Positions 5,548 through 64,000 of a stretch of 64,000 nucleotides of DNA are shown here, piece by piece. Location of the stretch: positions 19,108-83,107 of the forward strand of contig JAUCBJ010001560.1 in assembly GCA_032718475.1 (NCBI GenBank), in the 5' to 3' direction. Position 1 is the stretch's first letter. Each line of letters begins with the position of its first letter. The notes beneath the pieces are model-generated. The model saw only the letters and a program-made list of their open reading frames with translations, ran no database searches and was not told the DNA's origin. Both the position numbers and the translations under genes were made by a program. Source of the stretch: Nemertoderma westbladi (lineage: Eukaryota > Animalia > Xenacoelomorpha).

Positions 5548-5622
5548 CTCCTGCAGGGATCGAACTCACGACCTCCGGGACATGTAAATTAAAGAAAAAT
5601 TATGTAAGCACTACGCCAAGGT
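5548..5622 (-). other. tRNA-derived (SINE-head-like) Pol III A/B-box element
   Basis: Minus strand reads TGGCGTAGTGC (A-box-like) ... GGAGGTCGTGAGTTCGATCCC (B-box, resembling a tRNA T-arm). No full cloverleaf. A related fragment AGAGGTCGTGAGTTCG lies near 61032. Confidence 0.4.
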
Positions 5623-18197: not shown

Positions 18198-18326
18198 TGA
18201 TTTGTGGTTGGCTGTAGGCTGTATGCAGTATGTGTGCAGTGTGGTAGGCCTAATCTGCTAATCCTGTAGGTAATCGGAATCCTGTAATCTGTTCTTTTAA
18301 ACACAAAAATCGTTACCGTACACAAC

Positions 18327-26194: not shown

Positions 26195-26620
26195 TCATTC
26201 TAATCCAACAGGAGGAAGTGCCATTACAGGCGGTGTTCCATGTCCGGCCGCAGGAGGGCCTACTTCAGTCGGGGTACCATATCTTTCGGACGGGGTAGAA
26301 CCATATCCTTCGGACGGGGTACCGTATCTTTCGGACGGGGTTCCATATCCGGGCGCAGGAGGGTCTACCATTCCTGGTGTTCCATCGAACCCCGGTGGTC
26401 TAGGCGACACAGGAGGATTGTCGACTGGATTGGCACGACTTCTTCTTTTCCAACTCCTACTAATGCAAGCGCAAATGGCGACAATTCCAATAATAACCAA
26501 AACTCCAATGATAACCGCCGGTATTGCCATCATCACATAAAGTATACTGGAATGGGCGTCGTCCTCCCCCTTATCTTTATCTTCGTGTAAGTCGGGTAGT
26601 TCGGATATACCGGTATCCAT
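26195..26620 (-). CDS. Small single-pass membrane protein with a Pro/Gly/Tyr-rich repetitive tail; possibly a retrocopy or pseudogene
   Basis: Hydrophobic stretch ILYVMMAIPAVIIGVLVIIGIVAICACI, then basic SRSWKRRSR, then YGTPSE repeats. GC-richer than its flanks. First in-frame ATG at 26620. Confidence 0.6.
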   Translation of the reverse strand: MDTGISELPDLHEDKDKGEDDAHSSILYVMMAIPAVIIGVLVIIGIVAICACISRSWKRRSRANPVDNPPVSPRPPGFDGTPGMVDPPAPGYGTPSERYGTPSEGYGSTPSERYGTPTEVGPPAAGHGTPPVMALPPVGLE

Positions 26621-27027
26621 TATGATGAATATATTTGCTCTCACATTGTAATTCCATAGACCATTGTATTTGCAGCACCGTATTTACTTGAGTTGTAATG
26701 AATAGAAATATAATGACATACAGTAGCCTACATTATTAATTGGGACTATAACAAATAATTACAATGTAATTGATGTAGTAGCCTAGTTTATAGTACAGAT
26801 AACTATGGTCCACTAAAGGCGATCTACCACTAAGGCCATGCAGCCCTGCTGGACTGAATGCAGAATTTACAAAAACAAGATTTATAAAATGATAGTATGG
26901 GGAGCGTTCTAGAAATTAAGATAAGCTGCTATTCGATCAATGGTCATAATTGTAACCACGCTGTTAAGCAAGCTAACTAAATTTTATGATACTGTAGTCC
27001 TATAGCTAGTATTTTGAAACTGGTTTC

Positions 27028-28008
27028 ATCAGAATGGGTTCCGTAAAGGTCGTAGGACCATGGAGCCCATTTTGGCACTTAGAAGGATAATTGGAGATTT
27101 ATCAAAAAAAGAAAGACAGGCATCTATCTGGCTGCTAACTTTGTTGACTTCTTCAAGGCCTTTGATTCAGTCTCTCGCTTACGTATATTCAGCATACTTT
27201 CATTATATTGGATTCCTGATGAAACTATTGCAGCAATCAGATCAGTATACGATGGTTCGAGAACATTTGTGTCTACTGTTGATGGTGACACAGAACAATT
27301 TGAAATGTTATGAGGAGTCCCACAGGAAGAAACACTTGCGCCATTCTTGTTCATAATTGTGGTTGAATATGTTCTACGCATGTCCTTAGATCATCATAAT
27401 GATGATGGGGTGATGATAACTCAACCTACTGGCTCCAGAAGTCGAGGAAATCCTGTCAAGTGCCTAAATGATCTAGACTTTGCTGATGACTTATAGGAGT
27501 ACTCTCAGAATCACTAGAGGGAGCCCAACGGCTCCTCAGCTCATTAGAACAGGCTGCTTGGTATTTTTATTAACTCCAAAATACCAACGTTTTGACAGTT
27601 AACATTGAAAGTCCTCAGCAAGTCTCTGACCGGATGTGCATTAGCTCAAAGGATGGTGTGCTTGTGCATGTGGACGACTTCTGTTACCTGGAATCATGGA
27701 TCCGGAGGACAGGTGAGGACCTTCGCATAAGTAAGTGAAAGGCATGGGCAGCCTTGAATATGCTTTCCAAGATTTGAAAGTCAAATATAATTAATCGGAA
27801 ACTTAAGGTCCGATATTATTTAGAGCACCAGTAGTTCCAGTACTCCTCTATGGGAGTCCATGCTAGGCTCTAACTGCTGAGGACACCAAATCTCTGGATG
27901 GCAAATTCACAAGAATGCTACGCCGGGTTCACTGTGTCAATGCACAGCACACATATCCAACCAGACTCTATATAACATTGGAGGTGTCTCATTGGTTCCC
28001 CCAAGCTT
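27028..28008 (+). mobile_element. Degraded RTE LINE, truncated at both ends (copy 2)
   Basis: Colinear with 58852-59833 but with many substitutions, indels and stops; no TAG tail. Confidence 0.9.
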
Positions 28009-31625: not shown

Positions 31626-34600
31626 ATACTTCACTTCCACTTGTAGGTACAGGGCATACTTCACTTCCACTTGTAGGTTCACAGCATACTTCCACTTGTA
31701 AGTTCAGGGCATACTTCACTTCCACTTGTAGGTTCACGGCTTACTTCCACTTGTAGGTTCAGGGCATACTTAACTTCCACTTGTAGGTTCAGGGCATACT
31801 TCACTTCCACTTGTAGGTACAGGGCATACTTCCACTTGTAGGTTCAGGGCATACTTCACTTCCACTTGTAGGTTCACGGCATACTTCCACTTGTAGGTTC
31901 AGGGCATACTTCCACTTGTAGGTTCAGGGCATACTTCCACTTGTAGGTTCACGGCATACTTCCACTTGTAGGTTCAGGGCATACTTCACTTCCACTTGTA
32001 GGTTCACGGCATACTTCCACTTGTAGGTTCAGGGCATACTTAACTTCCACTTGTAGGTTCAGGGCATACTTCCACTTGTAGGTTCACGGCATACTTCCAC
32101 TTGTAGGTTCACGGCATACTTCCACTTGTAGGTTCACGGCATACTTCCACTTGTAGGTTCAGGGCATACTTCCACTTGTAGGTTCAGGGCATACTTCCAC
32201 TTGTAGGTTCACGGCATACTTCCACTTGTAGGTTCAGGGCATACTTCACTTCCACTTGTAGATTCAGGGCATATTTCACTTCCACTTGTAGATTCAAGGC
32301 ATACTTCCACTTGTAGGTTCAGGGCATACTTCATTTCCACTTGTAGGTTCACGGCATACTTCCACTTGTAAGTTCACGGCATACTTCCACTTGTAGGTTC
32401 AGGGCATACTTCACTTCCACTTGTAGATTCAGGGCATACTTCACTTCCACTTGTAGGTTCACGGCATACTTCCACTTGTAGGTTCAGGGCATACTTCCAC
32501 TTGTAGGTTCAGGGCATACTTCCACTTGTAGGTTCACGGCATACTTCCACTTGTAGGTTCAGGGCATACTTCACTTCCACTTGTAGATTCAGGGCATATT
32601 TCACTTCCACTTGTAGATTCAGGGCTTACTTTCACTTGTAGGTACAGGGCATACTTCCACTTGTAGGTTCAGGGCATACTTCACTTCCACTTGTAGGTTC
32701 ACAGCATACTTCCACTTGTAGGTTCAGGGCATACTTCACTTCCACTTGTAGATTCAGGGCATATTTCACTTCCACTTGTAGATTCAGGGCATACTTCCAC
32801 TTGTAGGTTCAGGGCATACTTCATTTCCACTTGTAGGTTCACGGCATACTTCCACTTGTAGGTTCAGGGCATACTTCCACTTGTAGGTTCAGGGCATACT
32901 TCCACTTGTAGGTTCAGGGCATACTTCCACTTGTAGGTTCAGGGCATACTTCCACTTGTAGGTTCAGGGCATACTTCCACTTGTAGGTTCACGGCATACT
33001 TCCACTTGTAGGTTCAGGGCATACTTCACTTCCACTTGTAGATTCAGGGCATATTTCACTTCCACTTGTAGATTCAGGGCTTACTTCCACTTGTAGGTTC
33101 AGGGCATACTTCACTTCCACTTGTAGGTTCACAGCATACTTCCACTTGTAGGTTCAGGGCATACTTCACTTCCACTTGTAGGTTCAGGGCATATTTCACT
33201 TCCACTTGTAGGTTCAGGGCATACTTCCACTTGTAGGTTCAGGGCATACTTCATTTCCACTTGTAGGTTCACGGCATACTTCCACTTGTAGGTTCAGGGC
33301 ATACTTCCACTTGTAGGTTCAGGGCATACTTCACTTCCACTTGTAGGTTCAGGGCATACTTCACTTCCACTTGTAGATTCAGGGCATATTCACTTCCACT
33401 TGTAGGTTCAGGGCATACTTCCACTTGTAGGTTCAGGGCATACTTCATTCCACTTGTAGGTTCAGGGCATACTTCCACTTGTAGGTTCAGGGCATACTTC
33501 CACTTGTAGGTTCAGGGCATACTTCACTTCCACTTGTAGGTTCAGGGCATATTCACTTCCACTTGTAGGTTCAGGGCATACTTCCACTTGTAGGTTCAGG
33601 GCATACTTCCACTTGTAGGTTCAGGGCATACTTCACTTCCACTTGTAGGTTCAGGGCATATTTCACTTCCACTTGTAGGTTCAGGGCATACTTCCACTTG
33701 TAGGTTCAGGGCATACTTCACTTCCACTTGTAGGTTCACGGCATACTTCCACTTGTAGGTTCAGGGCATACTTCCACTTGTAGGTTCAGGGCATACTTCA
33801 CTTCCACTTGTAGGTTCAGGGCATATTCACTTCCACTTGTAGGTTCAGGGCATACTTCCACTTGTAGGTTCAGGGCATACTTCCACTTGTAGGTTCAGGG
33901 CATACTTCCACTTGTAGGTTCAGGGCATACTTCACTTCCACTTGTAGGTTCAGGGCATATTTCACTTCCACTTGTAGGTTCAGGGCATACTTCCACTTGT
34001 AGGTTCAGGGCATACTTCACTTCCACTTGTAGGTTCACGGCATACTTCCACTTGTAGGTTCAGGGCATACTTCCACTTGTAGGTTCAGGGCATACTTCCA
34101 CTTGTAGGTTCAGGGCATACTTCCACTTGTAGGTTCAGGGCATACTTCCACTTGTAGGTTCAGGGCATACTTCCACTTGTAGGTTCAGGGCATACTTCCA
34201 CTTGTAGGTTCAGGGCATACTTCCACTTGTAGGTTCAGGGCATACTTCCACTTGTAGGTTCAGGGCATACTTCCACTTGTAGGTTCAGGGCATACTTCAC
34301 TTCCACTTGTAGGTTCAGGGCATCACTTCCACTTGTAGGTTCAGGGCATACTTCCACTTGTAGGTTCAGGGCATCTTCACTTCCACTTGTAGGTTCAGGG
34401 CATACTTCCACTTGTAGGTTCAGGGCATACTTCCACTTGTAGGTTCAGGGCATACTTCACTTCCACTTGTAGGTTCAGGGCATACTTCCACTTGTAGGTT
34501 CAGGGCATACTTCCACTTGTAGGTTCAGGGCATACTTCACTTCCACTTGTAGGTTCAGGGCATACTTCACTTCCACTTGTAGGTTCAGGGCATACTTCCA

Positions 34601-35236
34601 CTTGTAGGTTCAGGGCATACTTCCACTTGTAGGTTCAGGGCATACTTCACTTCCACTTGTAGGTTCAGGGCATACTTCCACTTGTAGGTTCAGGGCATAC
34701 TTCACTTCCACTTGTAGGTTCAGGGCATACTTCACTTCCACTTGTAGGTTCACAGCATACTTCCACTTGTAGGTTCAGGGCATACTTCCACTTGTAGGTT
34801 CAGGGCATACTTCACTTCCACTTGTAGGTTCAGGGCATTTCACTTCCACTTGTAGGTTCAGGGCATACTTCCACTTGTAGGTTCAGGGCATACTTCACTT
34901 CCACTTGTAGGTTCAGGGCATACTTCCACTTGTAGGTTCAGGGCATACTTCACTTCCACTTGTAGATTCAGGGCATTTTTCACTTCCACTTGTAGATTCA
35001 GGGCATACTTCCACTTGTAGGTTCAGGGCATACTTCACTTCCACTTGTAGGTTCACGGCATACTTCCACTTGTAGGTTCAGGGCATACTTCACTTCCACT
35101 TGTAGATTCAGGGCATTTTTCACTTCCACTTGTAGATTCAGGGCATACTTCCACTTGTAGGTTCAGGGCATACTTCACTTCCACTTGTAGGTTCACGGCA
35201 TACTTCCACTTGTAGGTTCAGGGCATACTTCCACTT
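31626..35236. repeat. 25/30-bp minisatellite, ~3.6 kb
   Basis: Interspersed units CATACTTCCACTTGTAGGTTCAGGG (25 bp) and CATACTTCACTTCCACTTGTAGGTTCAGGG (30 bp). Confidence 0.97.
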
Positions 35237-41300: not shown

Positions 41301-44300
41301 AGTGCAATGCAGTCAGTGAATCCACCCATGTTCCGGCTGCTAATCTAACTTCAATTTTAAACTATTTTGATATTATTAAATATATTATTAAAACTATTAA
41401 TGATATTCAAATTGTTAATCAATCCATAATTTTATGTTTAAATTACTTATTAAATTAAATTAATAATTCAGTAATTATGTCATTTTTTCATTTTTTCATT
41501 TTTTTTTCATTTTAAAATAGCATCCGGCCATGGTGGTAGGGTTCCGGGACCACGTACATAGGTTCTACACGTACAGTAGTTGATTGTTGTGACAGTATAA
41601 AGATGGTGTCTTCGTATCGGTACCAGAACTGTACAATTCCTGTTTCTCCTTAAAATACATACTGTTTTGACGTCTTGGCGATATGATTAACTACGGTATA
41701 TAGGCTGACCGGTGTATCGGTACCGTATACAGGTAATCAGTGTTGAAGTGAAAGTTATTGGTGGTGGTAGACCCCTAGTACTAAGTACAGGACTTATTCA
41801 TTACGCCCCAATGTAATATATAATAATTTCATGTGAACAGACTAGATTATATCTAAAATTACAGATTGATAATGAAAGATTTTGATTCCAAAATTGTAAC
41901 ATTACTCAACGCCGTTAGTATTAAGAGCGAGTTGTTATTTAGCACTTTACAACAACTACATTAGTGTTGTATTGGCCTGCACATTTAGTATTGGTGTTGT
42001 AATATCCTTTGTTTGTGGTAACCAATGACGGTGAACTGTAAAGTTACGGCGTCATTGGTTACCACGTAAACAATAGGTGGTATTTAATATTAATTGCCTG
42101 ACAGCAAGAAAGGCCTACAGTACAGCATTACCTACCGGTAGCTATTAATAACCAGCAGCTATAAACTATTAACATGGCTCCAAACGCCACCATAAATATA
42201 AGCTAATTTATTTATAACATAATTTATGTCATTTTTATATTTATTTATACAGCAACTAATATAATTTGTGCAGTTTCTATCACTTATAATGTGTATGTAC
42301 AATCATTTCGTAATGTTACAATTATTCGGAATAAAACTACATACATACTTGTTGCAAAGTACTTTACAGTGTTTTGATCCTCGTGGATTTATTATCACTC
42401 ACTCACTAACGTTCGTTCGTATAACAAAGCCACTCGGATCATCACACTGTAAAGTTCTACTTTACACACAAGTATGTAAATAGTTATATTTACCGCGTTA
42501 ACCTTTAGTACTGTATGCTAACATAGCTCAGTTAGCAAGGTGTCCTGCTTTCTCATTCTTCCTTGTCTATAAATTCTTGATGGCGGCTAGAATATAGGAT
42601 TACCCAACACAAAAGTAACAGAAACAAATTAAATTAGCTGACTAACAGTTAGGTCGGTCGCGTGGTCTGGGGCCATATTAAATCTGCGTTTGCGCTTTTT
42701 AATCTTTAGCGACGTAATGTAATCGCCGTCACATGGAGCCGCAGTCGTTGACACTGATTCTAAATTCAATATAAAAATACCTTAATTGGACATCTCATAA
42801 ATGAAAATCACCAAAACATTAATCGTGACTTCCGTGGTGTCCTTTGGGCGAAATGGTCTGTGTGCTAAGACAGACTTTGTTCTGTACATATTATGTATAG
42901 TAATAAGATAAAACTATATAAATACATTTACCATTAGGCCACCACAAACCGACAACAATCGAACAAATCGATAACAATGGTACAAGGTAACCCATGTGGG
43001 TGTAAAATTCGGAGGGGTGGGTTTTCGAGCCAAGATTTAACAAAATATTTGTTTTTTATTTAATCTGAAGCAACATTTAATGAGCATTTCAAATCTTAAA
43101 CTGGCTTTGCAAAATCCCCTTTAGTTCACGAGTTTTCGCCTTCATTGTTCATCTCTCACATGTAGACCTTTTCAATGATACTGGGCCTATTTGGGTGACT
43201 AACCTGGTCCCAATGATACTGGGCCTATTTGGGTGACTAACCTGGTCCCAATGACACTGGGCCTATATGGGTGACTAACCTGGTCCCAGTGATACTGGGC
43301 CTATTTGGGTGACTAACCTGGTCCCAATGACACTGGGCCTATATGGGTGACTAACCTGGTCCCAGTGATACTGGGCCTATTTGGGTGACTAACCTGGTCC
43401 CAATGATACTGGGCCTATTTGGGTGACTAACCTGGTCCCAATGACACTGGGCCTATATGGGTGACTAACCTGGTCCCAGTGATACTGGGCCTATTTGGGT
43501 GACTAACCTGGTCCCAATGACACTGGGCCTATATGGGTGACTAACCTGGTCCCAGTGATACTGGGCCTATTTGGGTGACTAACCTGGTCCCAATGATACT
43601 GGGCCTATTCGGGTGACTAACCTGGTCCCAATGATACTGGGCCTATTCGGGTGACTAACCTGGTCCCAATGATACTGGGCCTATTCGGGTGACTAACCTG
43701 GTCCCAATGATACTGGGCCTATTCGAGTGACTAACCTGGTCCCAATGATACTGGGCCTATTTGGGTGACTAACCTGGTCCCAATGATACTGCAGGAATGG
43801 GTTGACGAATTGCATCCTGATACCTTTGGAGACTATACCAATCAGGTTGTTGAATGTTGCTAGCATTCAACAGCTCTTTCAAATCGTTAATGTAGATAAT
43901 AGCAAGTCTGAGAGTCTCATATTTGCTTAATCTGTAAATGAATATATTACTATATAGGTACAGAATCACTGCTTAGTTAAACAGAATATTGCATGTGCAG
44001 CATGCAGAATCGCTGTCAGGATTCAATGTTCATTTTGACAAATGAGGCATCAACATCGGGAACATTTTATTGCCAAAACCCAACGCTACCATGAACCCTC
44101 CAAGGACGGAATGTCATGCCCGTCATTGACATTTTTTTTTATTTGACATTTTTTTTTTACTAGAAAGCCAGCAAGCTGGCTTTAAACGAACCTGCCCCTC
44201 AAACCAGTACCATGAGTGAGAGAAAATAAAAACACGATAATTGCCATCAACTCAACGATAGAAACACCAGCTTCTGGTACTCATGAGGGCCTAGTAAGCT

Positions 44301-45471
44301 ACTACTATTTATTGAATGGATAGCCCAAACTGCAGAGAAGTATATTACTTGCCAAATTTATTACTATCTAACTCTAACCCAGACAGTAATCAAACATAAA
44401 CTGTAAGTTTGTATAATGTATTACTCCACCAGATGAATAGCTCTTCCCAGTGAATCCTATGACAACATCTATAAGGTTACTCACTGCTATGTTAGGTGGG
44501 AGGGAGTTGATAATAATGAATGAGGAGGGACCCAACTAACACTACGTTTGTCTATGGACGGTCTCCTTATAGCCAGCCAGTTTACTGGCTTTTCTAGTTG
44601 AATCATATTATTCCGCAACTAAATAATTTACCCTTTTAGACGAATTTGTGCGTTTTTTTGCCGGACTAACAAATTTTGGCGACGTTCTGTGCGAGATTGG
44701 CGATATTTGAAAAGATTCTGAGGCTCAAATATGTTGCTCAAATGACTGAATATCTCAAATAAAAAAAGTTGGTGCATACTCGACGAGTTGAAATCGGTAA
44801 AATTCGACATTAAATTTTCAAAACCTGCTATTTTTCAGTGATCCCGTGATCGAAACGCCACAAAAAATATACAGTCTTGTGCGCAACAAAAATCTATGTA
44901 GAGTTTGTTATTAAAATTTTTGCGTACCTACTTGAGTTTTTGAGATATTGGATGGTTATACACACATACACAGATAACCACATCGTATTTTTGAACGGCT
45001 CAACTCTTGACAAAAACTACCCTGGCCTATTTATAGGCAGGTTCGTTATTAGACATTTTTCATAACAGCTGTTACCTCAGACTGGAGGGTGAAACGCAAA
45101 ATGATAAAATTGGATGGAATATAATTATCATAAGTATCATAATATATGCATTAGTCATCTATTATTCATTAGTGATAGTGACAGCGACATGGATTGCATT
45201 TTTCTCTAGGCCTATGCACGTTACGGTGCAGTCATTTAACATAATGCTCTATAATTATTACTTAGACTCGCATCACCCACCTGCATTTGTTCTCTGGGAG
45301 AGGAATGGCGTCCATAAGGTCCATGTAGGACTCGTTTAGTTTGTATACCCGGTTCCGTTCCCGAGCGTTGGCTTCCAGCCGTCGCTGGTCCTCAGAGCCG
45401 GGCTGCCGTAGATACTGGGAGGTGAGGTTCGCGGATGTGGAACAAATGGGATCGGGTTCGGTTGGGGTCAC
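38301..45471 (-). CDS. Atonal-related bHLH transcription factor, spliced. Exons 45281-45471, 43774-43931, probable 39879-40596, terminal 38301-38851
   Basis: Splicing at AG|gtgggt ... tttacag|A gives RRLEANARERNRVYKLNESYMDLMDAIPLPENKCRLSKYETLRLAIIYINDLKELL (atonal/NeuroD-type bHLH). The donors at 43774 and 39879 are both phase 1, matching the acceptor at 38851. Exon 39879-40596 starts in phase 0, so a linking exon is unresolved. Confidence 0.8.
41100..41280 (+). pseudogene. Fragment of a non-LTR retrotransposon ORF2 C-terminal zinc knuckle
   Basis: Translates as SHSVMIEQETWNSTPRNERYCPVCMFAVIEDEYHFLLKGPVYQDLR, the typical SHxLxIE..R.C..C...EDExHFL.CP.Y..LR motif, with a stop just upstream. 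Confidence 0.7.
42326..42495. mobile_element. Small palindromic MITE-like element
   Basis: Nested inverted pairs TACATACTTGT/ACAAGTATGTA and ACTTTACAGTG..GATCC/GGATC..CACTGTAAAGT. Confidence 0.5.
43173..43791 (-). repeat. 38-bp array, ~16 copies, made of a bHLH exon end plus its splice donor
   Basis: Minus-strand unit CAGTATCATTGGGACCAG|GTTAGTCACCCAAATAGGCC. The first copy overlaps the 3' end of exon 43774-43931. Confidence 0.93.
44159..45049 (-). mobile_element. Helentron/HINE-like element (copy 2), in the intron that splits the bHLH domain
   Basis: Colinear with 35239-36130, with the same subTIR and hairpin; inserted next to a T-run. Confidence 0.7.
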
Positions 45472-48178: not shown

Positions 48179-50339
48179 GGGCCGAGTAACTCAAAAAATC
48201 ATGAGATTGCCCTTGAAATCCACTTCAAGGTCACCTTGAAACTCAAGTTTTACCTTGACTAAGATTTTCTTGAGTTTCAAGTCAAGCGCGTAACTCAAAG
48301 CAATACTTAGTCAAGGTGGAGCTTGAAATTTCAATGCTCACCTTGAGAATTAAAGATTGGCGACATATTTGTTTATTTCAGCAGTTGCCTTAGTTATGCA
48401 GTGAAACGAACTGTATAATCCCTGCAGTATACAGTTAGTAGGGCTATTGAATACAGGTTAAACCACTGTTGCAACACTGGCAATGGTAATTTCTATAACA
48501 CCACGGAACTTATAAACAGTTGTATAGAAAGCTGTAGTTAGTTTACCGACTACAGTAGCCTGTGAGGGGGTGAGCAATGTACTTCTAAAGGGAGGGGGGG
48601 GGGGGATATTTTTCGATACCACATTTTTTGAAACCAGCATGTTCATTTTCATCATATTTTCGGCCACTTTTTATGTTTTAATTTTCTATATCTGATAATT
48701 GCCAATTTTGTAAAAAAAAAATTAAAAAAAAAATGAAAAATAACATGTTTTTTCTAACTTATAATTGGAAAAAATTGAGAAATATTAATTGAAATTATTG
48801 CAGCAATCAGATCAGTATACGATGGTTCGACAACATTTGTGTCTACTGTTGACGGTGACACAGAACCATTTGAAGTGTTATGGGGCGTCCTCCAAGGAGA
48901 CACACTTGCACCATTCTTGTTCATAATTGTTGTTGACTATTTTCTACGCATGTCCTTAGATCATCATAATGATGATGGGGTGATGATAACTCCACCTACT
49001 GGCTCCAGAAGTCGAGGAAACCCTGCCAAGTACCTAACTGATCTAGACTTTGCTGATGACTTAGGAGTACTCTCAGAATCACTAGAGGGAGCCCAACGGC
49101 TCCTCAGCTCACTAGAACATGCTGCTTCTAGTGTTGGTCTTTTTATTAAATCCAGAAAGACCAAAATTTTGACAGTTAAATTTGAAAGTCCTCAGCAAGT
49201 CTCTGATCGGATGAGCATAAGCTCAAAATATGGTATGCTTGAGCATGTGGATGACTTATGTTACCTGGGATCATGGATCCGGAAGTCAGGTGAGGACCTT
49301 CGCATACGCAAGGGAAAGACATGGGCAGCCTTGAATAGGCTTTCCCGGATTTGGAAGTCACCGAGAATTAATCGGAAACTTAAGGTTCGATTATTTAGAG
49401 CAGCAGTAGTTCCAGTACTCCTCTATGGGAGTCCATGCTGGGCTCTAACTGCTGAGGACACAAAATCTCTGGATTGCACGTTCACAAGAATGCTACGCCG
49501 GGTTCATTGTGTCAAGTACAATGCACACATCTCCAACCAGACACTATATAACATTGTAGGTGTCTCATTGGTTCCCCCAAAGCTTGACACTAGAACAAAA
49601 TCGCCTCCGCTTTGCAGGACATTGCTTTCGCCGTGAGGACCAGCCAGTGCATAATCTTGTACTTTGGCAGCCTCATGGAGTGAATAAGCATGGTGGACAG
49701 CTCATGACTTTCTTGAGACGCATCTTAAAGGACACTGGCTTTGAAGATGCGGATGATCTAGCAAATGTCATTGGTGATAGGGAGTTGTGGCGGTGCAATT
49801 TTGTCGATAAGCCGGCACAGCATTCATAAAAATGCAGCTGCAATGCAGCATGCCGATCCTAGTAGTAGTAGAGAAATATTATGTAATCAAGAAAACTGGC
49901 CGAAATTTACTTAAGCTTAGGAAATTACCAAAAAATAAAAAATTACAAAAAACTAAAAGTAGTTTTCGTGTGAAAAAATGTCATTCAGAGATAATTGCTT
50001 TCAAAGTTCAAAAACATTTCGGGGTGGGGGGCATTCTGCAAAAATGCCTATTTTATGGTACCGGTAGCAGTAGGCTAACAGTAACAGCTAAAGCGATGAT
50101 TTGAGATACCTTGAAATTTGAAGGTACCTACATGGCTACCTTGAAATTTATCTCGAACCTTGACTTCAACTCAAGTCAAGATTTTTTGTGTTACCGGATT
50201 GAAATTTCAAGTTTACCTTGAGGAAAATCTTAATTCTACCTTAAGGTTGACCTTGACATTTTTCAGATAGGAATACTAGTAAAATAGATTCAAGGTTAGT
50301 TTCAAGGTCAATCTCAAGATTTTTTGAGTTACACGGCCC
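48179..50339. mobile_element. PIF/Harbinger-like non-autonomous TIR element, interrupted by an RTE copy
   Basis: ~40-bp TIR GGGCCGAGTAACTCAAAAAATCATGAGATTGCCCTTGAAA vs reverse complement GGGCCGTGTAACTCAAAAAATCTTGAGATTGACCTTGAAA; subterminal CTTGA/TCAAG motifs. TSD not clear. Confidence 0.7.
48790..49870 (+). mobile_element. RTE LINE, 5'-truncated (copy 3)
   Basis: RT motifs, one frameshift near 49580, (TAG)n tail, and an 11-bp TSD GAGAAATATTA (48777-48787 and 49871-49881). Confidence 0.94.
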
Positions 50340-53842: not shown

Positions 53843-56800
53843 ATGTCTGGAAGCAGTGTTGTTGTGCCCATTGTACTTTGGGGAAAGAATCCGCCTACAC
53901 ATTGCGTTTCTACAATTATTATAACAAATGATCAGAAAACAATATGTACCGGTTCCCATGATGGCCAGTTACTTCTGTGGGATGTAAGTTAAGTTTTGAA
54001 TTTGTTATAGATAACGGTAATATAACGGATATATGTTACCGGTAATAACTCCTATTTTAGTTAGGTCATTCGCTACTATACAAAGACTTACCCTAATGGT
54101 ATCCTTAATGTCGATAAAATGTAAACTAAATATGTACCGGTCCGGTAGGTAGTGCCTCATTGTGTTAATGTAACATGAATATGGCCGTAAAATAAAATGG
54201 AAAAGGAAATGGCCGTAAGATAATATGGAGATAACCACAGTGTAAAATAGAAATAGCCGTAAAATAATATTACTTTGGCCTTACCGTATATATAAAAAAA
54301 AGAAAAAATACCAAAAGAAAGAGTTTTAGGAGCAACACCGAAACATTACGAGATTTTAATTTTTGTAGATTAATGGGCTGGACGTTAAGCCGCGTCTGCT
54401 ATTACTAGGACATTCCACCGCCATCAGCTGTTTGTCTAAAACTCCGGATTCCTCGTGCATATACAGCGCTTCGGAAAACGGGTAGGTCCTGTAAAGTGCT
54501 ACTTTACACAACATTAGGTTATATACATACAATTGTTATTACTATCCCACATAAATTATGTTTATAATGTCGGACAAAAAATGTTACCTCCTTTTTGTGA
54601 AGTAAACAGTTAACTGTTGGAATTTTTGTTTTAGATTCTTATAAAATTTTTAATTTAATTTATATTTCAAATTCAAATAGAGGAGAAGAGATGGGAGGGG
54701 GGTGATTCTTTAATATACGAGGTGATGGGGGAAATGAAAGCAGGTAGATATAACTATTTGACTTCAGTCTTATAATCCTTTGTTTTACACGACTAGGGAG
54801 ATCTGCCTTTGGGATGTATCTGACGGCCGCTGCATGCAGACCTCCAAGCAAGGCGGCGCCCACACTGGAATGGTCACTTTCTACACCCAACAGTCAAGTG
54901 GCTCGCCCCAGGGTGGACGTGAATTGAGATTACTCACCCACGGTGTCTACCCTGTACTCCAGGTACGTTACTATGGTTACTCACCCACGGTGTCTACCCT
55001 GTACTCCAGGTACGTTACTATGGTTACTCACCCACGGTGTCTACCCTGTACTCCAGGTACGTTACTATGGTTACTCACCCACGGTGTCTACCCTGTACTC
55101 CAGGTACGTTACTATGGTTACTCACCCACGGTGTCTACCCTGTACTCCAGGTACGTTACTATGGTTACTCACCCACGGTGTCTACCCTGTACTCCAGGTA
55201 CGTTACTATGGTTACTCACCCACGGTGTCTACCCTGTACTCCAGGTACGTTACTATGGTTACTCACCCACGGTGTCTACCATGTACTCCAGGTACGTTAC
55301 TATGGTTACTCATCCACGGTGTCTACCCTGTACTCCAGGTACGTTACTATGGTTACTCACCCACGGTGTCTACCCTGTACTCCAGGTACGTTACTATGGT
55401 TACTCACCCACGGTGTCTACCATGTACTCCAGGTACGTTACTATGGTTACTCATCCACGGTGTCTACCCTGTACTCCAGGTACGTTACTATGGTTACTCA
55501 TCCACGGTGTCTACTTGTAAACAGTAAGGCATATATCATTTACCGAAATTTCAGTCTTTATAAAACTTCCAAGGATACCTACATAAGTAACATTTAATTT
55601 AATTTAGATTAGAACCTCATGACCTAGGGTTTATGGTTCAATTACAACTTTAATTATTGCTTGTGACTGACCAACAAATTATAACCCCAAAAAAACGAAC
55701 CAATATCAGGATAAGTACTACTGATTAGGCACTTATCAAGATTGACCAACTAACTAAGCGGCAAAAGTTGCTTTATATTCTCTAAATTATTGCGAATATT
55801 ATTTTTGATTGTCTCAGTTGGTTGTTTCTTGATAAAGTTGCTAAAACGCCTTTAGAGCGAGTCGATTTTATGGTCACGTTGTCTGTGAAACTCTGATGAA
55901 ATGAGAAATTACTTAATTCGACGATGAGAAAAGTTCTTCATTCGAGATTGAATTGGAAAATCTCTGCGCTGCGCTGCTGATAGCAAAATAAATGGTCATA
56001 ATATGTCGACCGTCGAAAAGGTAAGGTAAAAGAAGCCAGGCTGTTATTATCTGGTTGAATTCATTGTAACATCGTCAATCATTCACCCAGAAGATGATAG
56101 ATGGAATACGGAATAGGTAATCTACTTCGGTTGAACTGGTTGGACAACGAAACCTCAGCGAAAACCGAACCTTGGATCGTAAACCTTGGAACGCGATCAG
56201 CCAGGCATCCATCGACGCACACACACCCGTGCATCCCCCGTGCCCCTGTCTACCATACCGAATCGGCACCTCACAATGTTCACACAAGGGTTCGACTCTC
56301 CCGACGCAAGTTCGAGGTAAACGGGAACGTTCGTCGCCGGCAGCTGGTGTAGCATTGAATCGGAGACCGAATGTTACGCGCTCAGTACAGCAGCTATCGC
56401 TAGGATGACGATTCAGTGGGCGGGAATCTAGCGCTCAGTGAACACATCGCAGATAACGGCTTCCCTCGCGTACCGAACCTGGGCTGGACAAAACGGAGCA
56501 GAAAAACGTATACCTGTATTCCAGTTTACCAACGAGAATACCCTCGGCTCAGCTAAGACCTGATGCGAAAAACTGTTTTTACGGAAGTATGTTGCTATCA
56601 CCTGGCGACGGGCCCCCACGGCCCGGGTGCCTGGTAAGTGGGGGGTTGTTGTGAGTTTTTAAAACTCTCAGGAATTCAGTGAAGTTTACCGAGGAGTTGA
56701 CCTTTAATACAGAAATAAATAGTAATGCAGTTAGATTGTTATTGAAATACGCTACAGATACAGAAAAGGTTGTTTTACTTCAGGTACAATAAATATAATA

Positions 56801-59800
56801 ATAGCTCCATATCTTACACATAGCTTACCTTGCTTACATATAATACTGCGCAATACAATACACAATTAAATTAGTTATAAAAAAATCAATAAATATTGCA
56901 TCCAAATTGGCTTTGAGCACTACTACTGCTGTTAGCTAATGAATTACTGAATTAAAATGTTAAGCGTTCGTTACCCGAGGGTTTCGTCCGACAATCGAAT
57001 ATCGGTTAACATCGACAATATCGACTTCATATCGGTGGTCATGTTCCGTGCCATATCGTTCTGCATTCCGATTACCTCTGCCATATCGGCTAATAGTTGC
57101 GCGTGATCCTCTTTCACCTTAGCCAACCTCTCCATTACGTTATCCTGGCGCCTCTCCAAGTTGTCCGCGGGTTCTGCTGACGGACTTCCGGGGACCTCGG
57201 GTTTACTTTTGCATTCACCGAACTCCACTCCCCAATCCTTCTCGACGTTCTCGATTTCTGTGCTGGTTTCTTTCATTTTCTTCTCGATTGCAGTAAATGA
57301 GCTCAACATATTCTCACTGTACTCGCTCAGGTTCTTCTGCACTTGCGTCATGGTGGAGTTTATACTGTCAGCTCCTCCTTCCGCCATTGTATTGTTGTCC
57401 CGGTGCCGGTAGTAATGATAGGGCTTCTGTATTTTGTTTATAGAACCGTTCCCTAACTCTATAGGTACGGTACTGCGTAAGCCAGTAAGCGACGGTAGCT
57501 CTTCCCATTCACTGAATCGGAATCCGCGAATTAGCCGGCCAAATTATCAAATAGCCATCTCCCGATATTACAGTATTAGACAGTAGTTCAGTAGTTATCG
57601 TATAATAAATAAAGGTGATACGTTTTATTATATTACTGTATTATCAGGGGGGCCTACCATATTGTACCAGTCAGTAGTGTACCGGTACATCGGTACATCA
57701 TAGACACTGTAGTTCAGAAACAGCCTGTGAAACGAACTGTATTACAGCAGACGGTTGTAAGTTTGTTATGGATGTCTGCTGTCTGCGTAACATTTACACA
57801 TTATTACGAGACAGGGAGTGACGAAAACCTCATATTGGCGAATTAATATTTCGTCTCCATGTTAATTTATGGAAATGTGCAGGTTACAGTGGCACATTAT
57901 TCTAACCAAAACAATAAACAAAAGTCAATAGAACAGTTTTTTATTTTTGAGAGTAATCAGTTCAATTTCAATTTCAATCCGGGAAGGCCCGGCCCTTTAT
58001 TTAATCTCACAGCAGACAATATTATGATGACAATACAATATTATACTTACAATTATCACGATTAACAATACAATGTCTTTCATCAATACACAAAATACAG
58101 ATATTATTACAACAGGATAAGTTTGAATGATATAAATTGAATTGCACCAACGGATTGCCGTAGCGAAGTGGCACCCGTTATGTGCTAAATAAATTGTACA
58201 CATATTATCTGGTGATTGGCGGGGTGCGGGGGATACTCGGTAGAATACATTTTCAGCGTGAATTTGTTTAATTTTAATGAGATATCATGAAAACGTGTTG
58301 TTGGTGTACTGGTGGTGGGGAAACTGACTTGACTTGTCGGATAAGATTCTATAAATACTTTGTTGTTATAACGTTATATATTATCTAGATAATGTTGTGA
58401 GTAATCAGAATTTCATCCATGAGGTTGCTTAGCTTGGACCAATAAATTAATTGGTCGACATAATCTATATCGATTATTTGAAAGCTATTATGTAACTTTT
58501 GGAGACAGGGGGGGGGGGGGGGGGGGGGGACTGGACGCAAAACCCGCCTTGGCGAATTAATATCCCGCCTCAATGTTAAATTCTCAATTTGGGAAAAGGA
58601 GCAGGTTACAGTGGCACGTTACTTTAACCAAAACAATAAACTAAGCACAATAGAACAGTTACAGTTTATTTTTCAGAATAATCAGCTGTTATTTGCGTCG
58701 AATTTCCCCTGGAGAGGGATTAATTTTTATTGCGTCCAGTTTATTTTTACTGGGTTTCTAGGCTATTGTGCATTTGCAGTGCAGTCATATATTATGGTGA
58801 TATTATTATTAAATCGCATCAGGGATCCCATTGAGAGACTGCTACGTGGAAATCAGAATGGGTTCCGTAAAGGTCGTGGGACCATGGAGCCCATTTTGGC
58901 ACTTAGAAGGATAATTGAAGAGTTATCAAAAAAGAAAGACAGGCATCTGGCTGTTATCTTTGTTGACTTCTTCAAGGCCTTTGATTCAGTCTCTCGCTCA
59001 CGTATGTTCAGCATACTTTCATTATATGGGATTCCTGATGAAATTATTGCAGCAATCAGATCAGTATACGATGGTTCAACAACATTTGTGTCTACTGTTG
59101 ACGGTGACACAGAACCATTTGAAGTGTTATGGGGCGTCCTCCAAGGAGACACACTTGCACCATTCTTGTTCATTATTGTGGTTGACTATGTTCTACGCAT
59201 GTCCTTAGATCATCATAATGATGATGGGGTGATGATAACTCCACCTACTGGCTCCAGAAGTCGAGGAAATCCTGCCAAGTACCTAACTGATCTAGACTTT
59301 GCTGATGACTTAGGAGTACTCTCAGAATCATTAGAGGGAGCCCAGCGGCTCCTCAGCTCATTAGAACATGCTGCTTCTAGTGTTGGTCTTTTTATTAACT
59401 CCAGAAAGACCAAAATTCTGACAGTTAACTTTGAAAGTCCTCAGCAAGTCTCTGATCGGATGAGCATAAGCTCAAAGGATGGTATGCTTGAGCATGTGGA
59501 CGACTTCTGTTACCTGGGATCATGGATCCGGAAGTCAGGTGAGGACCTTCGAATACGTAAGGGAAAGGCATGGGCAGCCTTGAATAGGCTTTCCAGGATT
59601 TGGAAGTCACCTAGAATTAATCGGAAACTTAAGGTCCGATTATTTAGAGCAGCAGTAGTTCCAGTACTCCTCTACGGGAGTCCATGCTGGGCTCTAACTG
59701 CTGAGGACACCAAATCTCTGGATGGCACATTCACAAGAATGCTACGCCGGGTACATTGTGTCAAGTACAATGCACACATCTCCAACCAGACACTATATAA

Positions 59801-61556
59801 CATTGGAGGTGTCTCATTGGTTCCCCCAAGCTTGACACTAGAACAAAATCGGCTCCGCTTTGCAGGACATTGCTTTCGCCGTGAGGACCAGCCAGTGCAT
59901 AATCTTGTACTTTGGCAGCCTCATGGAGTGAATAAGCATGGTGGACAACCCATGACTTTCTTGAGACGCATCTTAAAGGACACTGGCCTTGAAGATGCGG
60001 ATGATCTAGCAAATGTCATGGGTGATAGGGAGTTGTGGCGGTGCGATTTTGTCGATAAGCCGGCACAGCATTCTTAAAAATGCAGCTGCAATGCAGCATG
60101 CCGATCCTAGTAGTAGTATGGTGGGCCTAGCTACTAAGTGTAGTAAGTTGTGAAGTGTAGTTTATTTGCTTGTGTATATAGATGTTTGAGGTACTTCTAA
60201 ATGAAAAGTAGTCTGCCAAACCAGTGTCGATCCGATAATTTTATTGAACGTTATCACATTTGGCACCTGTTCGGCGTTTATCCGCCTTTCCTGGCAAATG
60301 TAAACGAAATTTCTCACATGTTTCAAACATTCATAATTTACAAGTTATTTATGAATTCACTGTGAATTTATATTGCAGGTATTGGACGGACTTTCTCTTT
60401 GTCTACTCTACCGTCTGGCTTCCCGTCTCTCACCTGATTGGATATCTTGCCTCACTGTATTTCGCCCTGTATCCATACAAGGTAAATAGATAGATAGAAA
60501 GATGACTTCCTCTCTCCTCCGTGTCATACTTTGTGTAAAGAACTAAAACACTAATAGAAGTAAAGGTTCTTAATTAAAATAGTAAAGCAATGTAACTATA
60601 ATAAAGTAATTATAAGTATATTGTTGACCATTACCTTATTTTGTAGAGGAGACAGTTATAGCTGTAACCAGCAGTGGAGTCCTCAAGGTGTGGTCATTGG
60701 CTGCTGCCCCTAGCAACGACGTTGTGTATGAGGAAGACTCCAGAGAACTACGATGTCTTAATGCCCAATGTATAGTATGCTGCCCCTTCAACCAACGTAC
60801 TGTTCTTGTCGTCTGTAATAAATATTGGCACGTTAGTAATAATATACGATATATTCCAAGGTTGTTTATTAAACAAAGGGACTTAAAATAATTACGGGTA
60901 GCATTAATTTTGAGAGACTGGTGTCCTTAGGTGTTATTGTATTATTACATTTTCCCACTTATATAAATTATTTTTTAATTTTATTGTATAATGCCATTTT
61001 TAGCAAATCTTGAAGTCGGATCTCTGGCCCTAGAGGTCGTGAGTTCGGGCCCCGCAAGGGGACGACCAGGACTACGACTTTTATGTTAATAAAGGCTGGT
61101 GCTTGTGCTGCTCTAGGTTGTATTTTATTGCACCCTATTGTACTTTATTTTAACTTTATTTTATTTATTAAGTTAAATAGTTATAATGTAGTCTTATTTT
61201 GTACTATTTGTCGTACTTAGTACATTGTGTTTTTTTTTCAACGTTACGATTCTATATTTCTCTGTTACTATGTGCGTTTTTTTCAATATGTAATTATTTA
61301 ATTTGGCGACAATAAATCTAATCTAATATAATCTAGACATACAATATTCCTCTATTATTATAGTTAGTATTTACTACAGTAGAATTTATACTGGGTCTAT
61401 AACTTTACAGATATATGACGCCACCGATTACTCTTTACTATGTTCCGTCAGCCACACACAGGGGCAGCGTTGGGCCGGTGGTCATTTTATTGCCAAAGAT
61501 GAGGTGATTGTTTGGACCGGCGAAGGTGTAGGGTATCTCTACAGAGTTCCATCAAA
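53843..61556 (+). CDS. WDR7: WD repeat protein 7 (rabconnectin-3 beta), 5' part. Exons 53843-53983, 54369-54481, 54797-54962, 60379-60481, 60647-60831, 61411-61556; continues past the window
   Basis: All junctions are GT-AG and phase-consistent. The spliced protein MSGSSVVVPIVLWGKNPPTHCVS...GHSTAISCLSK...SASENGEICLWDVSDGRC...RLLTHGVYP...SPDWIS...GVLKVW...QRTVLVVCNKYW...DYSLLCS...VWT is colinear with the WDR7 N-terminus (VLPIVLWGRKAPTHCIS...). Confidence 0.93.
54930..55514 (+). repeat. 47-bp array, ~12.4 copies, made of the WDR7 exon 3 end plus its donor
   Basis: Unit TTACTCACCCACGGTGTCTACCCTGTACTCCAG|GTACGTTACTATGG (33 nt exon + 14 nt intron). Confidence 0.96.
56971..57387 (-). CDS. Nested antisense intronless 138-aa coiled-coil protein, SKA2-like (tentative)
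   Basis: ATG in a good context (CAATGG), GC-richer than its flanks, AATAAA-poor but T-rich 3' flank. Helix spacing (IEKKMKETSTEIENVE...EF...NVMERLAKVKEDHAQL...Q) resembles spindle/kinetochore protein SKA2. Confidence 0.6.
   Translation of the reverse strand: MAEGGADSINSTMTQVQKNLSEYSENMLSSFTAIEKKMKETSTEIENVEKDWGVEFGECKSKPEVPGSPSAEPADNLERRQDNVMERLAKVKEDHAQLLADMAEVIGMQNDMARNMTTDMKSILSMLTDIRLSDETLG
58800..60116 (+). mobile_element. RTE LINE, 5'-truncated with an intact RT reading frame (copy 4), in WDR7 intron 3
   Basis: Open from LLNRIRDPIERLLRGNQNGFR to the stop at 60077; (TAG)n tail; 7-bp TSD TATGGTG (58793-58799 and 60117-60123). Confidence 0.95.
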
Positions 61557-64000
61557 GTAAGTTCCGTTGTATCTCTACAGAGTTCCATCAAAGTAAGTTC
61601 CGTTGTATCTCTACAGAGTCCCTACAAAGTAAGTTCTGTTGTATCTCTACAGAGTTCCTACAAAGTAAGTTCTGTTGTATCTCTACAGAGTTCCATCAAA
61701 GTAAGTTCCGTTGTATCTCTACAGAGTTCCGTCAAAGTAAGTTCCGTTGTATCTCTACAGAGTCCCTTCAAAGTAAGTTCAGTTGTATCTCTACAGAGTT
61801 CCTTCAAAGTAAGTTCCGTTGTATCTCTACAGAGTCCCGTCAAAGTAGGTTCCGTTGTATCTCTACAGAGTTCCATCAAAGTAAGTTCCGTTGTATCTCT
61901 ACAGAGTCCCGTCAAAGTAAGTTCCATTGTATCTCTACAGAGTTCCATCAAAGTAAGTTCCGTTGTATCTCTACAGAGTTCCATCAAAGTAAGTTCCGTT
62001 GTATCTCTACAGAGTCCCGTCAAAGTAGGTTCCGTTGTATCTCTACAGAGTCCCGTCAAAGTAAGTTCCGTTGTATCTCTACAGAATTCCTACAAAGTAA
62101 GTTCCGTTGTATCTCTACAGAGTCCCTTCAAAGTAAGTTCCGTTGTATCTCTACAGAGTCCCTTCAAAGTAAGTTACGTTGTATCTCTACAGAGTTCCTT
62201 CAAAGTAAGTTCCGTTGTATCTCTACAGAGTTCCATTAAAGTAAGTTCCGTTGTATCTCTAGAGAGTTCCATCAAAGTAAGTTCCGTTGTATCTCTACAG
62301 AGTCCCGTCAAAGTAAGTTCCATTGTATCTCTACAGAGTTCCATCAAAGTAAGTTCCGTTGTATCTCTACAGAGTCCCGTCAAAGTAAGTTCCATTGTAT
62401 CTCTACAGAGTTCCATCAAAGTAAGTTCCGTTGTATCTCTACAGAGTCCCTTCAAAGTAAGTTCCGTTGTATCTCTACAAAGTCCCTTCAAAGTAAGTTC
62501 CGTTGTATCTCTACAGAGTCCCTTCAAAGTAAGTTCCGTTGTATCTCTACAGAGTTCCTTCAAAGTAAGTTCCGTTGTATATCTACAGAGTCCCTTCAAA
62601 GTAAGTTCCGTTGTATCTCTCTCTATAGAGTCCCGCCAAAGTAAGTTCCGTTGTATCTCTACAGAATTCCTACAAAGTAAGTTCCGTTGTATCTCTACAG
62701 AGTCCCTTCAAAGTAAGTTCCGTTGTATCTCTACAGAGTCCCTTCAAAGTAAGTTCCGTTGTATCTCTACAGAGTCCCTTCAAAGTAAGTTCAGTTGTAT
62801 CTCTACAGAGTTCCTTCAAAGTAAGTTCCGTTGTATCTCTACAGAGTCCCGTCAAAGTAGGTTCCGTTGTATCTCTACAGAGTTCCATCAAAGTAAGTTC
62901 CGTTGTATCTCTACAGAGTCCCGTCAAAGTAAGTTCCATTGTATCTCTACAGAGTTCCATCAAAGTAAGTTCCGTTGTATCTCTACAGAGTTCCATCAAA
63001 GTAAGTTCCGTTGTATCTCTACAGAGTCCCGTCAAAGTAGGTTCCGTTGTATCTCTACAAAGTCCCTTCAAAGTAAGTTCCGTTGTATCTCTACAGAGTC
63101 CCTTCAAAGTAAGTTCCGTTGTATCTCTACAAAGTCCCTTCAAAGTAAGTTCCGTTGTATCTCTACAGAGTCCCTTCAAAGTAAGTTCCGTTGTATCTCT
63201 ACAGAGTTCCTTCAAAGTAAGTTCCGTTGTATATCTACAGAGTCTCTTCAAAGTAAGTTCCGTTGTATCTCTCTCTATAGAGTTCCATCAAAGTAAGTTC
63301 CGTTGTATCTCTACAGAGTCCCTTCAAAGTAAGTTCCGTTGTATATCTACAGAGTCCCTTCAAAGTAAGTTCCGTTGTATCTCTCTCTATAGAGTTCCGT
63401 CAAAGTAAGTTCCGTTGTATCTCTACAGAGTTCCATCGAAGTAAGTTCCGTTGTATCTCTACAGAGTTCCATCGAAGTAAGTTCCGTTGTATCTCTACAG
63501 AGTCCCTTCAAAGTAAGTTCCGTTGTATCTCTACAGAGTCCCTTCAAAGTAAGTTCCGTTGTATCTCTCTCTATAGAGTCCCGCCAAAGTAAGTTCCGCT
63601 GTATCTCTACAGAGTTCCTTCAAAGTAAGTTCCGTTGTATCTCTACAGAGTTCCATCAAAGTAAGTTCCGTTGTATCTCTACAGAGTTCCATCAAAGTAA
63701 GTTCCGTTGTATCTCTACAGAGTCCCGCCAAAGTAAGTTCCGTTGTATCTCTACAGAGTTCCATCAAAGTAAGTTCCGTTGTATCTCTACAGAGTCCCTT
63801 CAAAGTAAGTTCCGTTGTATCTCTACAGAGTCCCTTCAAAGTAAGTTCCGTTGTATCTCTACAGAGTCCCTTCAAAGTAAGTTCCGTTGTATCTCTACAG
63901 AGTTCCATCAAAGTAAGTTCCGTTGTATCTCTACAGAGTCCCTTCAAAGTAAGTTCCGTTGTATCTCTCTCTATAGAGTTCCGTCAAAGTAAGTTCCGTT
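61533..64000 (+). repeat. 36-bp array, at least 68 copies, made of the WDR7 exon 6 end plus its donor; runs off the window
   Basis: Unit GTATCTCTACAGAGTTCCATCAAA|GTAAGTTCCGTT (24 nt exon + 12 nt intron), with occasional 40-bp variants. Confidence 0.97.

What the first reader, a model, noticed from the sequence alone, without database searches (positions are those of the whole stretch)
61533..64000. Variation among the 36-bp units falls at wobble positions of the parent WDR7 exon frame
Seen in sequence: the exon ends TAT CTC TAC AGA GTT CCA TCA AA|gtaagt. The two commonly variable sites among the copies are GTT/GTC (Val, third position) and CCA/CCT/CCG (Pro, third position, three states), so most copies still read V-P-S. 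Rarer variants include TCG and TAT (synonymous), ACA, AAA and ATT (conservative) and a few non-conservative ones (CCA, TTA, CTC). The GTAAGT donor is almost invariant. A neutral intronic satellite has no reason to respect codon structure. Inference: either the copies are translated, or the array exchanges sequence with the true exon by gene conversion/unequal crossover, so it is filtered by, or archives, synonymous alleles.
Basis: partly seen in the sequence, partly recalled or inferred. Interest (0 to 1): 0.8.

Follow-up and report, generated by a model that had tools for sequence, protein, structure and literature searches.

The report
WDR7 splice-donor "mirage" repeat, wobble coincidence
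The end of one exon of an animal's WDR7 gene, splice signal included, is copied head-to-tail into the next intron; the three commonest changes among the copies are silent in the exon's reading frame, but every copy carries a stop codon and the one spliced transcript seen skips them, so the pattern is likely chance amplification of a few old mutations in a known repeat type, with a smaller chance that the copies trade sequence with the real exon.

Summary
Real array: 68 units of 36 bp whose first unit is the last 23 bases of a WDR7 exon plus 13 intron bases. The three common variants (36, 33 and 15 of 68 units) are synonymous in the exon frame; taken alone P is 0.003-0.005. But they are three mutations at two sites. 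Over distinct mutations only 5 of 13 are synonymous (P 0.16-0.25). The two other exon-anchored arrays in the window give 2 of 4 (P 0.33-0.41). One peak site lies in a mutation cluster that is mirrored in the intronic half of the unit. Translation is unsupported: 68 of 68 units have an in-frame stop, and one spliced contig leaves at the first donor with no micro-exon. The exonic copy is unchanged in a second haplotype and in that transcript, against frequent exchange. This is a donor-spanning 'mirage' minisatellite, known from lancelets and human F7; the scan had already noted about 27 such arrays on other pieces of this genome, so one wobble-looking array is near expectation. A residual signal (1 radical change among 10 multi-copy alleles, post hoc P about 0.01) keeps an exon-array selection filter alive at about 0.2.

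The parts
61411..61556 (+). Sixth visible coding exon of WDR7 (rabconnectin-3B); ends in phase 2
   Evidence: 54% identity over 48 aa to insect WDR7 P0002, E 2e-20 for the pair; spliced at both ends in run X4 contig 25
61534..61569 (+). First unit of the array: 23 exon bases + donor GTAAGT + 7 more intron bases
   Evidence: same letters at the exonic positions in the X3 haplotype and the X4 transcript
61534..64000 (+). 36-bp donor-spanning minisatellite, 68 units, 23 distinct complete unit types, runs off the window
   Evidence: word depth suggests roughly 700 or more exon-type units in run X2 (rough, depth is not copy number)
61548..61551 (+). Unit positions 15 and 18, the two common variable sites (Val and Pro third positions)
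   Evidence: the same three substitutions are the only ones listed above a 1% share in runs X1 and X2, two of them in X3
61545..61567 (+). Internal 8-base direct repeat of the unit (positions 12-19 and 27-34), differing only at 18 versus 33; holds 13 of 19 distinct changes
   Evidence: sequence
61545..61556 (+). 12-base stretch between an acceptor-like CAG and the donor in each unit: a possible in-frame micro-exon, not seen used
   Evidence: sequence; acceptor comparison; no such joint
61750..62037 (+). Units 7-14, duplicated as units 35-42 (62762-63049): higher-order block
53843..60831 (+). Upstream WDR7 exons 53843-53983, 54369-54481, 54797-54962, 60379-60481, 60647-60831
   Evidence: only GT-AG combination near the guessed edges that gives an open frame, 284 aa with the sixth exon; 46% identity to insect WDR7, E 1e-91; two joints seen in X4
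54930..55514 (+). 47-bp donor-spanning array on WDR7 exon 3 (12 full units): control array, 0 of 2 changes synonymous
43173..43791 (-). 38-bp array whose first unit is the end of a bHLH coding exon plus a donor-like GTTAGT (16 units): control array, 2 of 2 exon-part changes synonymous
   Evidence: (PF00010, E 5e-8 for the upstream exon); donor use not checked in RNA

Best explanation
This is an intronic minisatellite seeded on a WDR7 splice donor, skipped by the one spliced transcript seen, whose three common silent-looking variants are likely old mutations amplified by drift within the array, one or two of them likely favoured by a local mutation hotspot. Shown: a 36-base piece spanning the exon end and donor was duplicated head to tail; the exon-type unit remains the first copy; splicing uses the first donor in the one transcript assembly. 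Inferred: the array grew and turned over by slippage and unequal exchange (an 8-unit block is duplicated), so a few early mutations rose to 20-50% while later ones stayed rare; position 18 is hot because it is the single mismatch between the unit's two internal 8-base repeats; that the two peak sites are third codon positions is a coincidence of the size expected once among some 30 such arrays.
For: Distinct changes: 5 synonymous of 13, expected share 0.23-0.27, P 0.16-0.25; removing the duplicated block and identical neighbours leaves the same 19 alleles and the same three common ones. Independent arrays: 2 of 4 synonymous, P 0.33-0.41; both 47-bp changes give residues seen in 0 of 58 distinct homologue segments. 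Hotspot: 5 alleles at positions 16-19 and 5 at the matching intronic positions 31-34, 10 of 19 in all, scan-corrected P 0.003-0.005; 4 of the 6 possible changes that perfect an internal direct or inverted repeat of 8 or more bases are present, against 15 of the other 102 (Fisher P 0.008), including two of the five synonymous ones. Without the templated allele the two remaining give P 0.02-0.03 over all positions, 0.05-0.07 over exon positions. Stop in 68 of 68 units. First donor used, 0 other letters. Exonic unit unchanged in a haplotype that differs at 13 places in 950 bases. Same architecture described in PMC3087553, PMC3902484, PMC1557585.
Against: Top three alleles all synonymous has P 0.003-0.005 under uniform placement and copy-number permutation gives P 0.007. 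Among the 10 exon-part alleles in 2 or more units only 1 is radical, while all 3 singletons are (P 0.003-0.011, thresholds chosen after looking); Lys, Ile at position 2 and Thr are residues that homologues use (75, 4 and 2 of 85 segments). The 38-bp array has 2 of 2 synonymous changes; pooled with the discovery array, common alleles are 5 of 7 synonymous, P 0.016-0.03. The hotspot and templating tests are also post hoc, and templating shows nothing in the two small arrays. The T>C change at position 15 has no mutational excuse. Only 68 of probably many hundred units were analysed base by base.
Confidence: 0.7

Rival explanations
1. Selection filter through exchange: contractions or conversions with a breakpoint in the first unit put array alleles into the real exon, so arrays rich in damaging alleles are selected against and only silent or conservative alleles can become common.
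For: All three common alleles synonymous; 9 of 10 multi-copy exon-part alleles synonymous or conservative; singletons are a stop, Pro>Ser at a proline invariant in 85 of 85 homologue segments, and Ser>Leu. All 4 common alleles of the 38-bp array are synonymous or intronic. Minisatellite turnover is fast (established knowledge; duplicated block).
Against: For the filter to work the inflow to the exon must be frequent enough that silent array alleles also enter it (inference), yet the exonic unit is T15/A18 in the window, the X3 haplotype and the X4 transcript (about 0.09 for two further matches at the window's 20 of 68 share; small sample). The 47-bp array in the same gene carries two radical changes at 2 of 12 units each. 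None of the common alleles lies in the 7 unconstrained intron positions (0.08 under the filter). PMC3087553 reports that cluster edges are excluded from homogenisation in a lancelet mirage.
Confidence: 0.17
2. Archive: the array was seeded more than once from the exon, or arrays of diverged haplotypes recombined, so the common unit types are former or alternative synonymous alleles of the exon.
For: The organism is polymorphic: two exonic differences in the neighbouring exon of the X3 haplotype are both synonymous. Run X3 shows C15 and G18 at the same depth and lists no T18, so a two-step silent type may coexist with the exon type.
Against: Needs three silent changes within 4 bases of exon history while the 13 intron bases of the seed show no common variant (maximum 4 of 68). 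No alternative exon allele seen. No gradient of similarity to the exon along the array (Spearman -0.01, P 0.92).
Confidence: 0.08
3. Micro-exon use: each unit holds an acceptor-like CAG 12 bases before its donor, so distant units could be spliced in as 12-base in-frame micro-exons adding four residues to a loop, which would put positions 12-23 under coding selection.
For: Phase matches the exon end; the acceptor-like site has a pyrimidine share (0.71) within the range of the gene's five real acceptors (0.53-0.71); an AG stands at positions 10-11 in 65 of 68 units; both common sites lie inside the 12 bases; homologues vary just after this point.
Against: No 12-base go-back joint and no other letters in the X4 spliced contig (contigs drop rare forms). 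Adjacent units would leave 24-base introns. 5 of 9 distinct changes within the 12 bases are non-synonymous. Lancelet mirages with AG/GT signals were not seen spliced in (PMC3087553).
Confidence: 0.05

Closest known systems
Lancelet 'mirage' minisatellites (Adh3, globins BflGb6 and BflGb9, troponin C, PGBD5). Seen: 6 passages of PMC3087553, 4 passages of PMC3902484; the original Adh paper (doi 10.1093/nar/gkf386) was not held
   Same: Tandem copies of an exon-intron boundary, unit length in the reported range (10-160 bp), splice signals kept, normal mRNA splicing, several per gene
   Different: Far more copies (68 in the window, roughly 700 or more by word depth, against 3-7 in the passages read); the passages read do not discuss codon-position bias
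Human F7 intron 7 37-bp VNTR, and the CBS, 6-16, LAMIN B2 and PDGF arrays it cites. Seen: abstract, outline and 12 passages of PMC1557585
   Same: First monomer spans the exon-intron boundary; identical donor pseudo-sites follow; the most upstream donor is used
   Different: F7 unit holds 4 exon bases, this one 23; F7 has 5-9 copies; in CBS and 6-16 the next donors are partly used, which here would meet a stop codon
Template-switch mutations that perfect quasi-palindromes and short repeats. Seen: search listing and abstract starts only (PMC3820800, PMC5677150)
   Same: Changes at unit position 9 make 10-base palindromes; changes at 18 and 33 make the two internal 8-mers identical
   Different: Mechanism inferred from sequence only; the change at 33 is equally a CpG transition

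Membership tests
Mirage / donor-spanning minisatellite | Head-to-tail tandem units of minisatellite length | tested here: met
   68 units, period 36, 92% matches
Mirage / donor-spanning minisatellite | Terminal unit spans the boundary of a real, used exon | tested here: met
   WDR7 homology; spliced contig leaves at 61556
Mirage / donor-spanning minisatellite | Downstream copies keep the splice signal | tested here: met
   GT in 68 of 68, GTAAGT in 64 of 68
Mirage / donor-spanning minisatellite | Mature mRNA spliced normally at the exon-proximal site | tested here: met
   One contig of one run (X4, inferred to be RNA from its GT-AG joints); rare isoforms not visible
Mirage / donor-spanning minisatellite | Length or composition polymorphism between haplotypes | tested here: inconclusive
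   Allele lists and depth ratios differ between X1, X2, X3, but contig depth is no copy number
Mirage / donor-spanning minisatellite | Somatic instability (reported for Adh3) | not testable with these tools
   needs reads from several tissues of one animal
Coding VNTR | Host reading frame runs through the units | tested here: not met
   stop at positions 25-27 in 68 of 68 units
Micro-exon cassette array | AG...GT-flanked in-frame short exons | tested here: met
   12 bases, phase 2-2, AG present in 65 of 68 units
Micro-exon cassette array | Inclusion in spliced RNA | tested here: inconclusive
   not seen in the one spliced contig; contigs drop rare forms
Array under protein-level purifying selection | Excess of synonymous changes among independent mutations, repeated in other arrays | tested here: inconclusive
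   5 of 13 (P 0.16-0.25); other arrays 2 of 4 (P 0.33-0.41); copy-weighted P 0.003-0.007 in the discovery array only

The most novel reading that the evidence does not exclude
Untranslated intronic copies are under protein-level purifying selection at one remove: because any unit can replace the exon end by unequal exchange, only silent or conservative variants can spread through the array. The satellite would be a standing pool of exon alleles, and a genome with dozens of such arrays would let one measure exon-satellite exchange directly.
Probability: 0.2. Interest if true: 0.7.

Novelty: new member of a known kind. Interest (0 to 1): 0.27.

Why it matters
As read here it is one more large mirage minisatellite in a genome already noted to be full of them, and the wobble pattern is a small-number effect. 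If the filter reading held, non-coding satellite DNA would carry the imprint of selection on a protein it does not encode, and exon ends next to such arrays would mutate by a route far faster than point mutation. The finding does hand over a cheap, well-defined test: score common alleles in all exon-anchored arrays of this genome by codon effect.

Tried and rejected
No whole genome is held for this window, so the genome-wide test could not be run; only the two other exon-anchored arrays of the window served as controls. The run search listed no holder on record as RNA; X4 was inferred to be RNA from its spliced contig. 4 of the 8 listed runs were laid; X5-X8 hold next to none of the words and were left out. 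X1 and X2 have no cover at 61370-61529, so their exonic allele was not read (a hole proves nothing). Laying on one unit listed only three substitutions and the 4-base insertion above 1%, so it did not enlarge the set of rare alleles. Metagenome scans for the unit (0 matches) and for the exon peptide (596 pattern hits, none confirmed) gave no related loci, so codons in relatives are unknown. Protein search with the 48-aa exon found nothing; the first exon found P0002. Structure-database searches gave only generic WD40 or chance hits. The Atlas was unavailable. Read-through translation rejected (stop in every unit); the other two + frames are nearly open (stops in 1 and 4 of 67 unit steps) but are not the exon frame, and the common variants change residues there. 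Selection on the donor hexamer not supported (P 0.11-0.12). Polarity towards the exon not seen. The other five long arrays of the window (66, 41, 68, 41, 25 bp) showed no exon anchoring by eye and were not scored. Literature: seven searches returned no paper whose listing addresses synonymous bias in boundary-spanning minisatellites; the library lacks most subscription journals, the Adh paper and all supplements were unseen, so this is no proof that it is not in print.
Full report
What is there. Tandem Repeats Finder reports a 36-bp array from 61533 to the window's end, 68 copies, 92% matches. Cutting it into units gives 63 of 36 bases and 5 with a 4-base insertion. The first unit is the last 23 bases of an exon (61411-61556) and the first 13 bases of the intron. 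Six exons from 53843 to 61556 join at AG and GT into an open frame of 284 residues that is 46% identical to insect WDR7/Rbcn-3B (E 1e-91; names).

The observation. Positions 15 (T 32, C 36) and 18 (A 20, T 33, G 15) are by far the most variable; both are third positions, of Val and Pro, and 59 of 68 units read V-P-S. In all there are 19 distinct substitutions: 13 in the exon-derived part (5 synonymous, 8 not, one a stop) and 6 in the intron-derived part. All 5 units with the synonymous TAT carry the frameshifting insertion. In runs X1 and X2 the same three substitutions are the only ones listed above a 1% share, and X3 lists two of them, so they dominate beyond the window too. Word depth suggests roughly 700 exon-type units in X2, a rough figure.

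Is it more than chance? Weighted by copies, nominally yes: if 19 alleles are dropped at random on the unit, the top three are all synonymous in 0.3-0.4% of trials (up to 0.5% by formula), and permuting copy numbers among the 13 exon-part alleles gives P 0.007. Counted as distinct mutations, no: 5 of 13 against an expected share of 0.23-0.27, P 0.16-0.25. Copies are not independent: units 7-14 recur as 35-42, and after removing that block and identical neighbours the picture is still three common alleles. The window holds two more arrays whose first unit is a coding exon end. The 47-bp array on WDR7 exon 3 has two changes, both non-synonymous and absent from 58 homologue segments. Together the controls give 2 of 4, P 0.33-0.41. 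Notes from other pieces of this genome list about 27 boundary-seeded arrays (unchecked AI notes), so a P of 0.003-0.005 picked from about 30 arrays becomes about 0.1-0.15 (my arithmetic).

A mutational account. The unit holds an 8-base direct repeat, positions 12-19 and 27-34, with one mismatch, 18 against 33. Five alleles lie at 16-19 and five at the matching intronic 31-34, 10 of 19, scan-corrected P 0.003-0.005. The intronic half has no codons, so the cluster is not a codon effect. Of six possible changes that perfect an internal direct or inverted repeat of 8 or more bases, four occur (P 0.008): A18G, G33A and both changes at position 9. That such changes arise by template switching is established in yeast (listing only); here it is inferred. 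Setting A18G aside leaves two common alleles, P 0.02-0.03 over all positions or 0.05-0.07 over exon positions. These tests are post hoc as well, and the T>C at 15 stays unexplained.

Are the copies translated? In the exon frame every unit has TAA (64) or TAG (4) right after the donor's first base. Run X4, labelled DNA? by the tool but holding a 2451-base contig that joins exons over GT-AG introns, leaves the exon at 61556 into the next exon with 0 other letters, and the 30 loose letters shown read on without a stop. Each unit also has an acceptor-like CAG 12 bases before its donor, which would make an in-frame micro-exon covering both variable sites; its pyrimidine share is like the gene's real acceptors. 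No such joint is listed, though contigs drop rare forms. An array-type contig in X4 has depth 232 against 9.5 for an intron piece, 24-fold, which unspliced background from a many-copy array can explain.

Do array and exon exchange? If array alleles entered the exon often enough for selection to shape the array, silent alleles at 20-50% would enter too and the exon would be polymorphic for them (inference). The X3 contig covers 60613-61562 with 13 differences, all listed between 60735 and 61351, two of them synonymous changes in the previous exon, none in this exon; X4 is also identical. X1 and X2 do not cover the exon. Two matches have a chance of about 0.09 at the window's share of exon-type units: modest evidence against. 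For exchange: only 1 of 10 multi-copy exon-part alleles is radical while all 3 singletons are (P 0.003-0.011, post hoc), and three of the conservative residues occur in homologues. I leave the filter at 0.17 and the archive version at 0.08.

Known kind. Tandem copies of exon-intron boundaries are described as mirages in lancelet Adh3, globin, troponin C and PGBD5 genes, with normal splicing (passages of PMC3087553 and PMC3902484), and in human F7, CBS, 6-16, LAMIN B2 and PDGF, where the most upstream donor is preferred (abstract and passages of PMC1557585). The name mirage and the globin paper came to me from earlier notes of this scan. The array meets the features I could test. Seven searches found no paper on codon bias in such arrays; supplements and the Adh paper were not seen.

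Verdict. A genuine, large donor-spanning minisatellite of a known kind. The wobble pattern is correctly described for the common alleles but rests on three mutations at two sites, does not hold over distinct mutations, is not clearly repeated in the two control arrays, and is not due to translation as far as one transcript shows. Interest 0.27; the exon-array filter is the open possibility worth one genome-wide count.

Noticed in passing
window 43173-43791 (- strand), gene about 43774-45450: bHLH gene with an intron inside the HLH domain; a 38-bp array starts at the end of its second visible exon, where the frame either splices at GTTAGT or stops two codons on. Both exon-part variants are synonymous.
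   Followed up: partly
window 54930-55514: Second donor-spanning array in WDR7 (47 bp, 12 full units, 33 exon bases); the X4 contig joins this exon end to the next exon.
   Followed up: partly
window 13875-18257 (- strand): Uninterrupted 1460-codon frame with coiled-coil-like region, C1, PH and CNH domains (citron/MRCK-like) and no kinase domain hit; unusual among intron-rich neighbours, possibly a retrocopy.
   Followed up: partly
window 24325-25518, 27028-28008, 48790-49870, 58800-60125: Four 5'-truncated copies of one reverse-transcriptase element (PF00078), 92-98% alike; one sits inside the 41-bp array 23648-25853, one in WDR7 intron 3; short TAG-type repeats at the 3' end.
   Followed up: partly
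36-bp array beyond the window (runs X1, X2): Unique sequence joins the unit after position 19, after position 7 and before position 2: an array end plus a likely insertion inside the array, or a second locus.
   Followed up: no
window 5617-9259, 10711-12693, 21743-22384, 23648-25853, 31633-35236: Five further minisatellites (66, 41, 68, 41, 25 bp); the 66-bp and 25-bp ones begin just after short tRNA-like repeat remnants by eye; no exon anchoring seen.
   Followed up: no
window 1-185 and about 5030-5210: A stretch of about 180 bases occurs twice, by eye.
   Followed up: no
window 26195-26683 (- strand): Frame with a hydrophobic, membrane-like stretch followed by a short proline-rich 21-bp repeat.
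   Followed up: no
window 60613-61562, run X3: Second haplotype with 13 substitutions and three indels in 950 bases: high heterozygosity.
   Followed up: partly
WDR7 gene: Recalled, from no call: human WDR7 has an unrelated 69-bp intronic VNTR in its last intron; different place and origin, likely coincidence.
   Followed up: no
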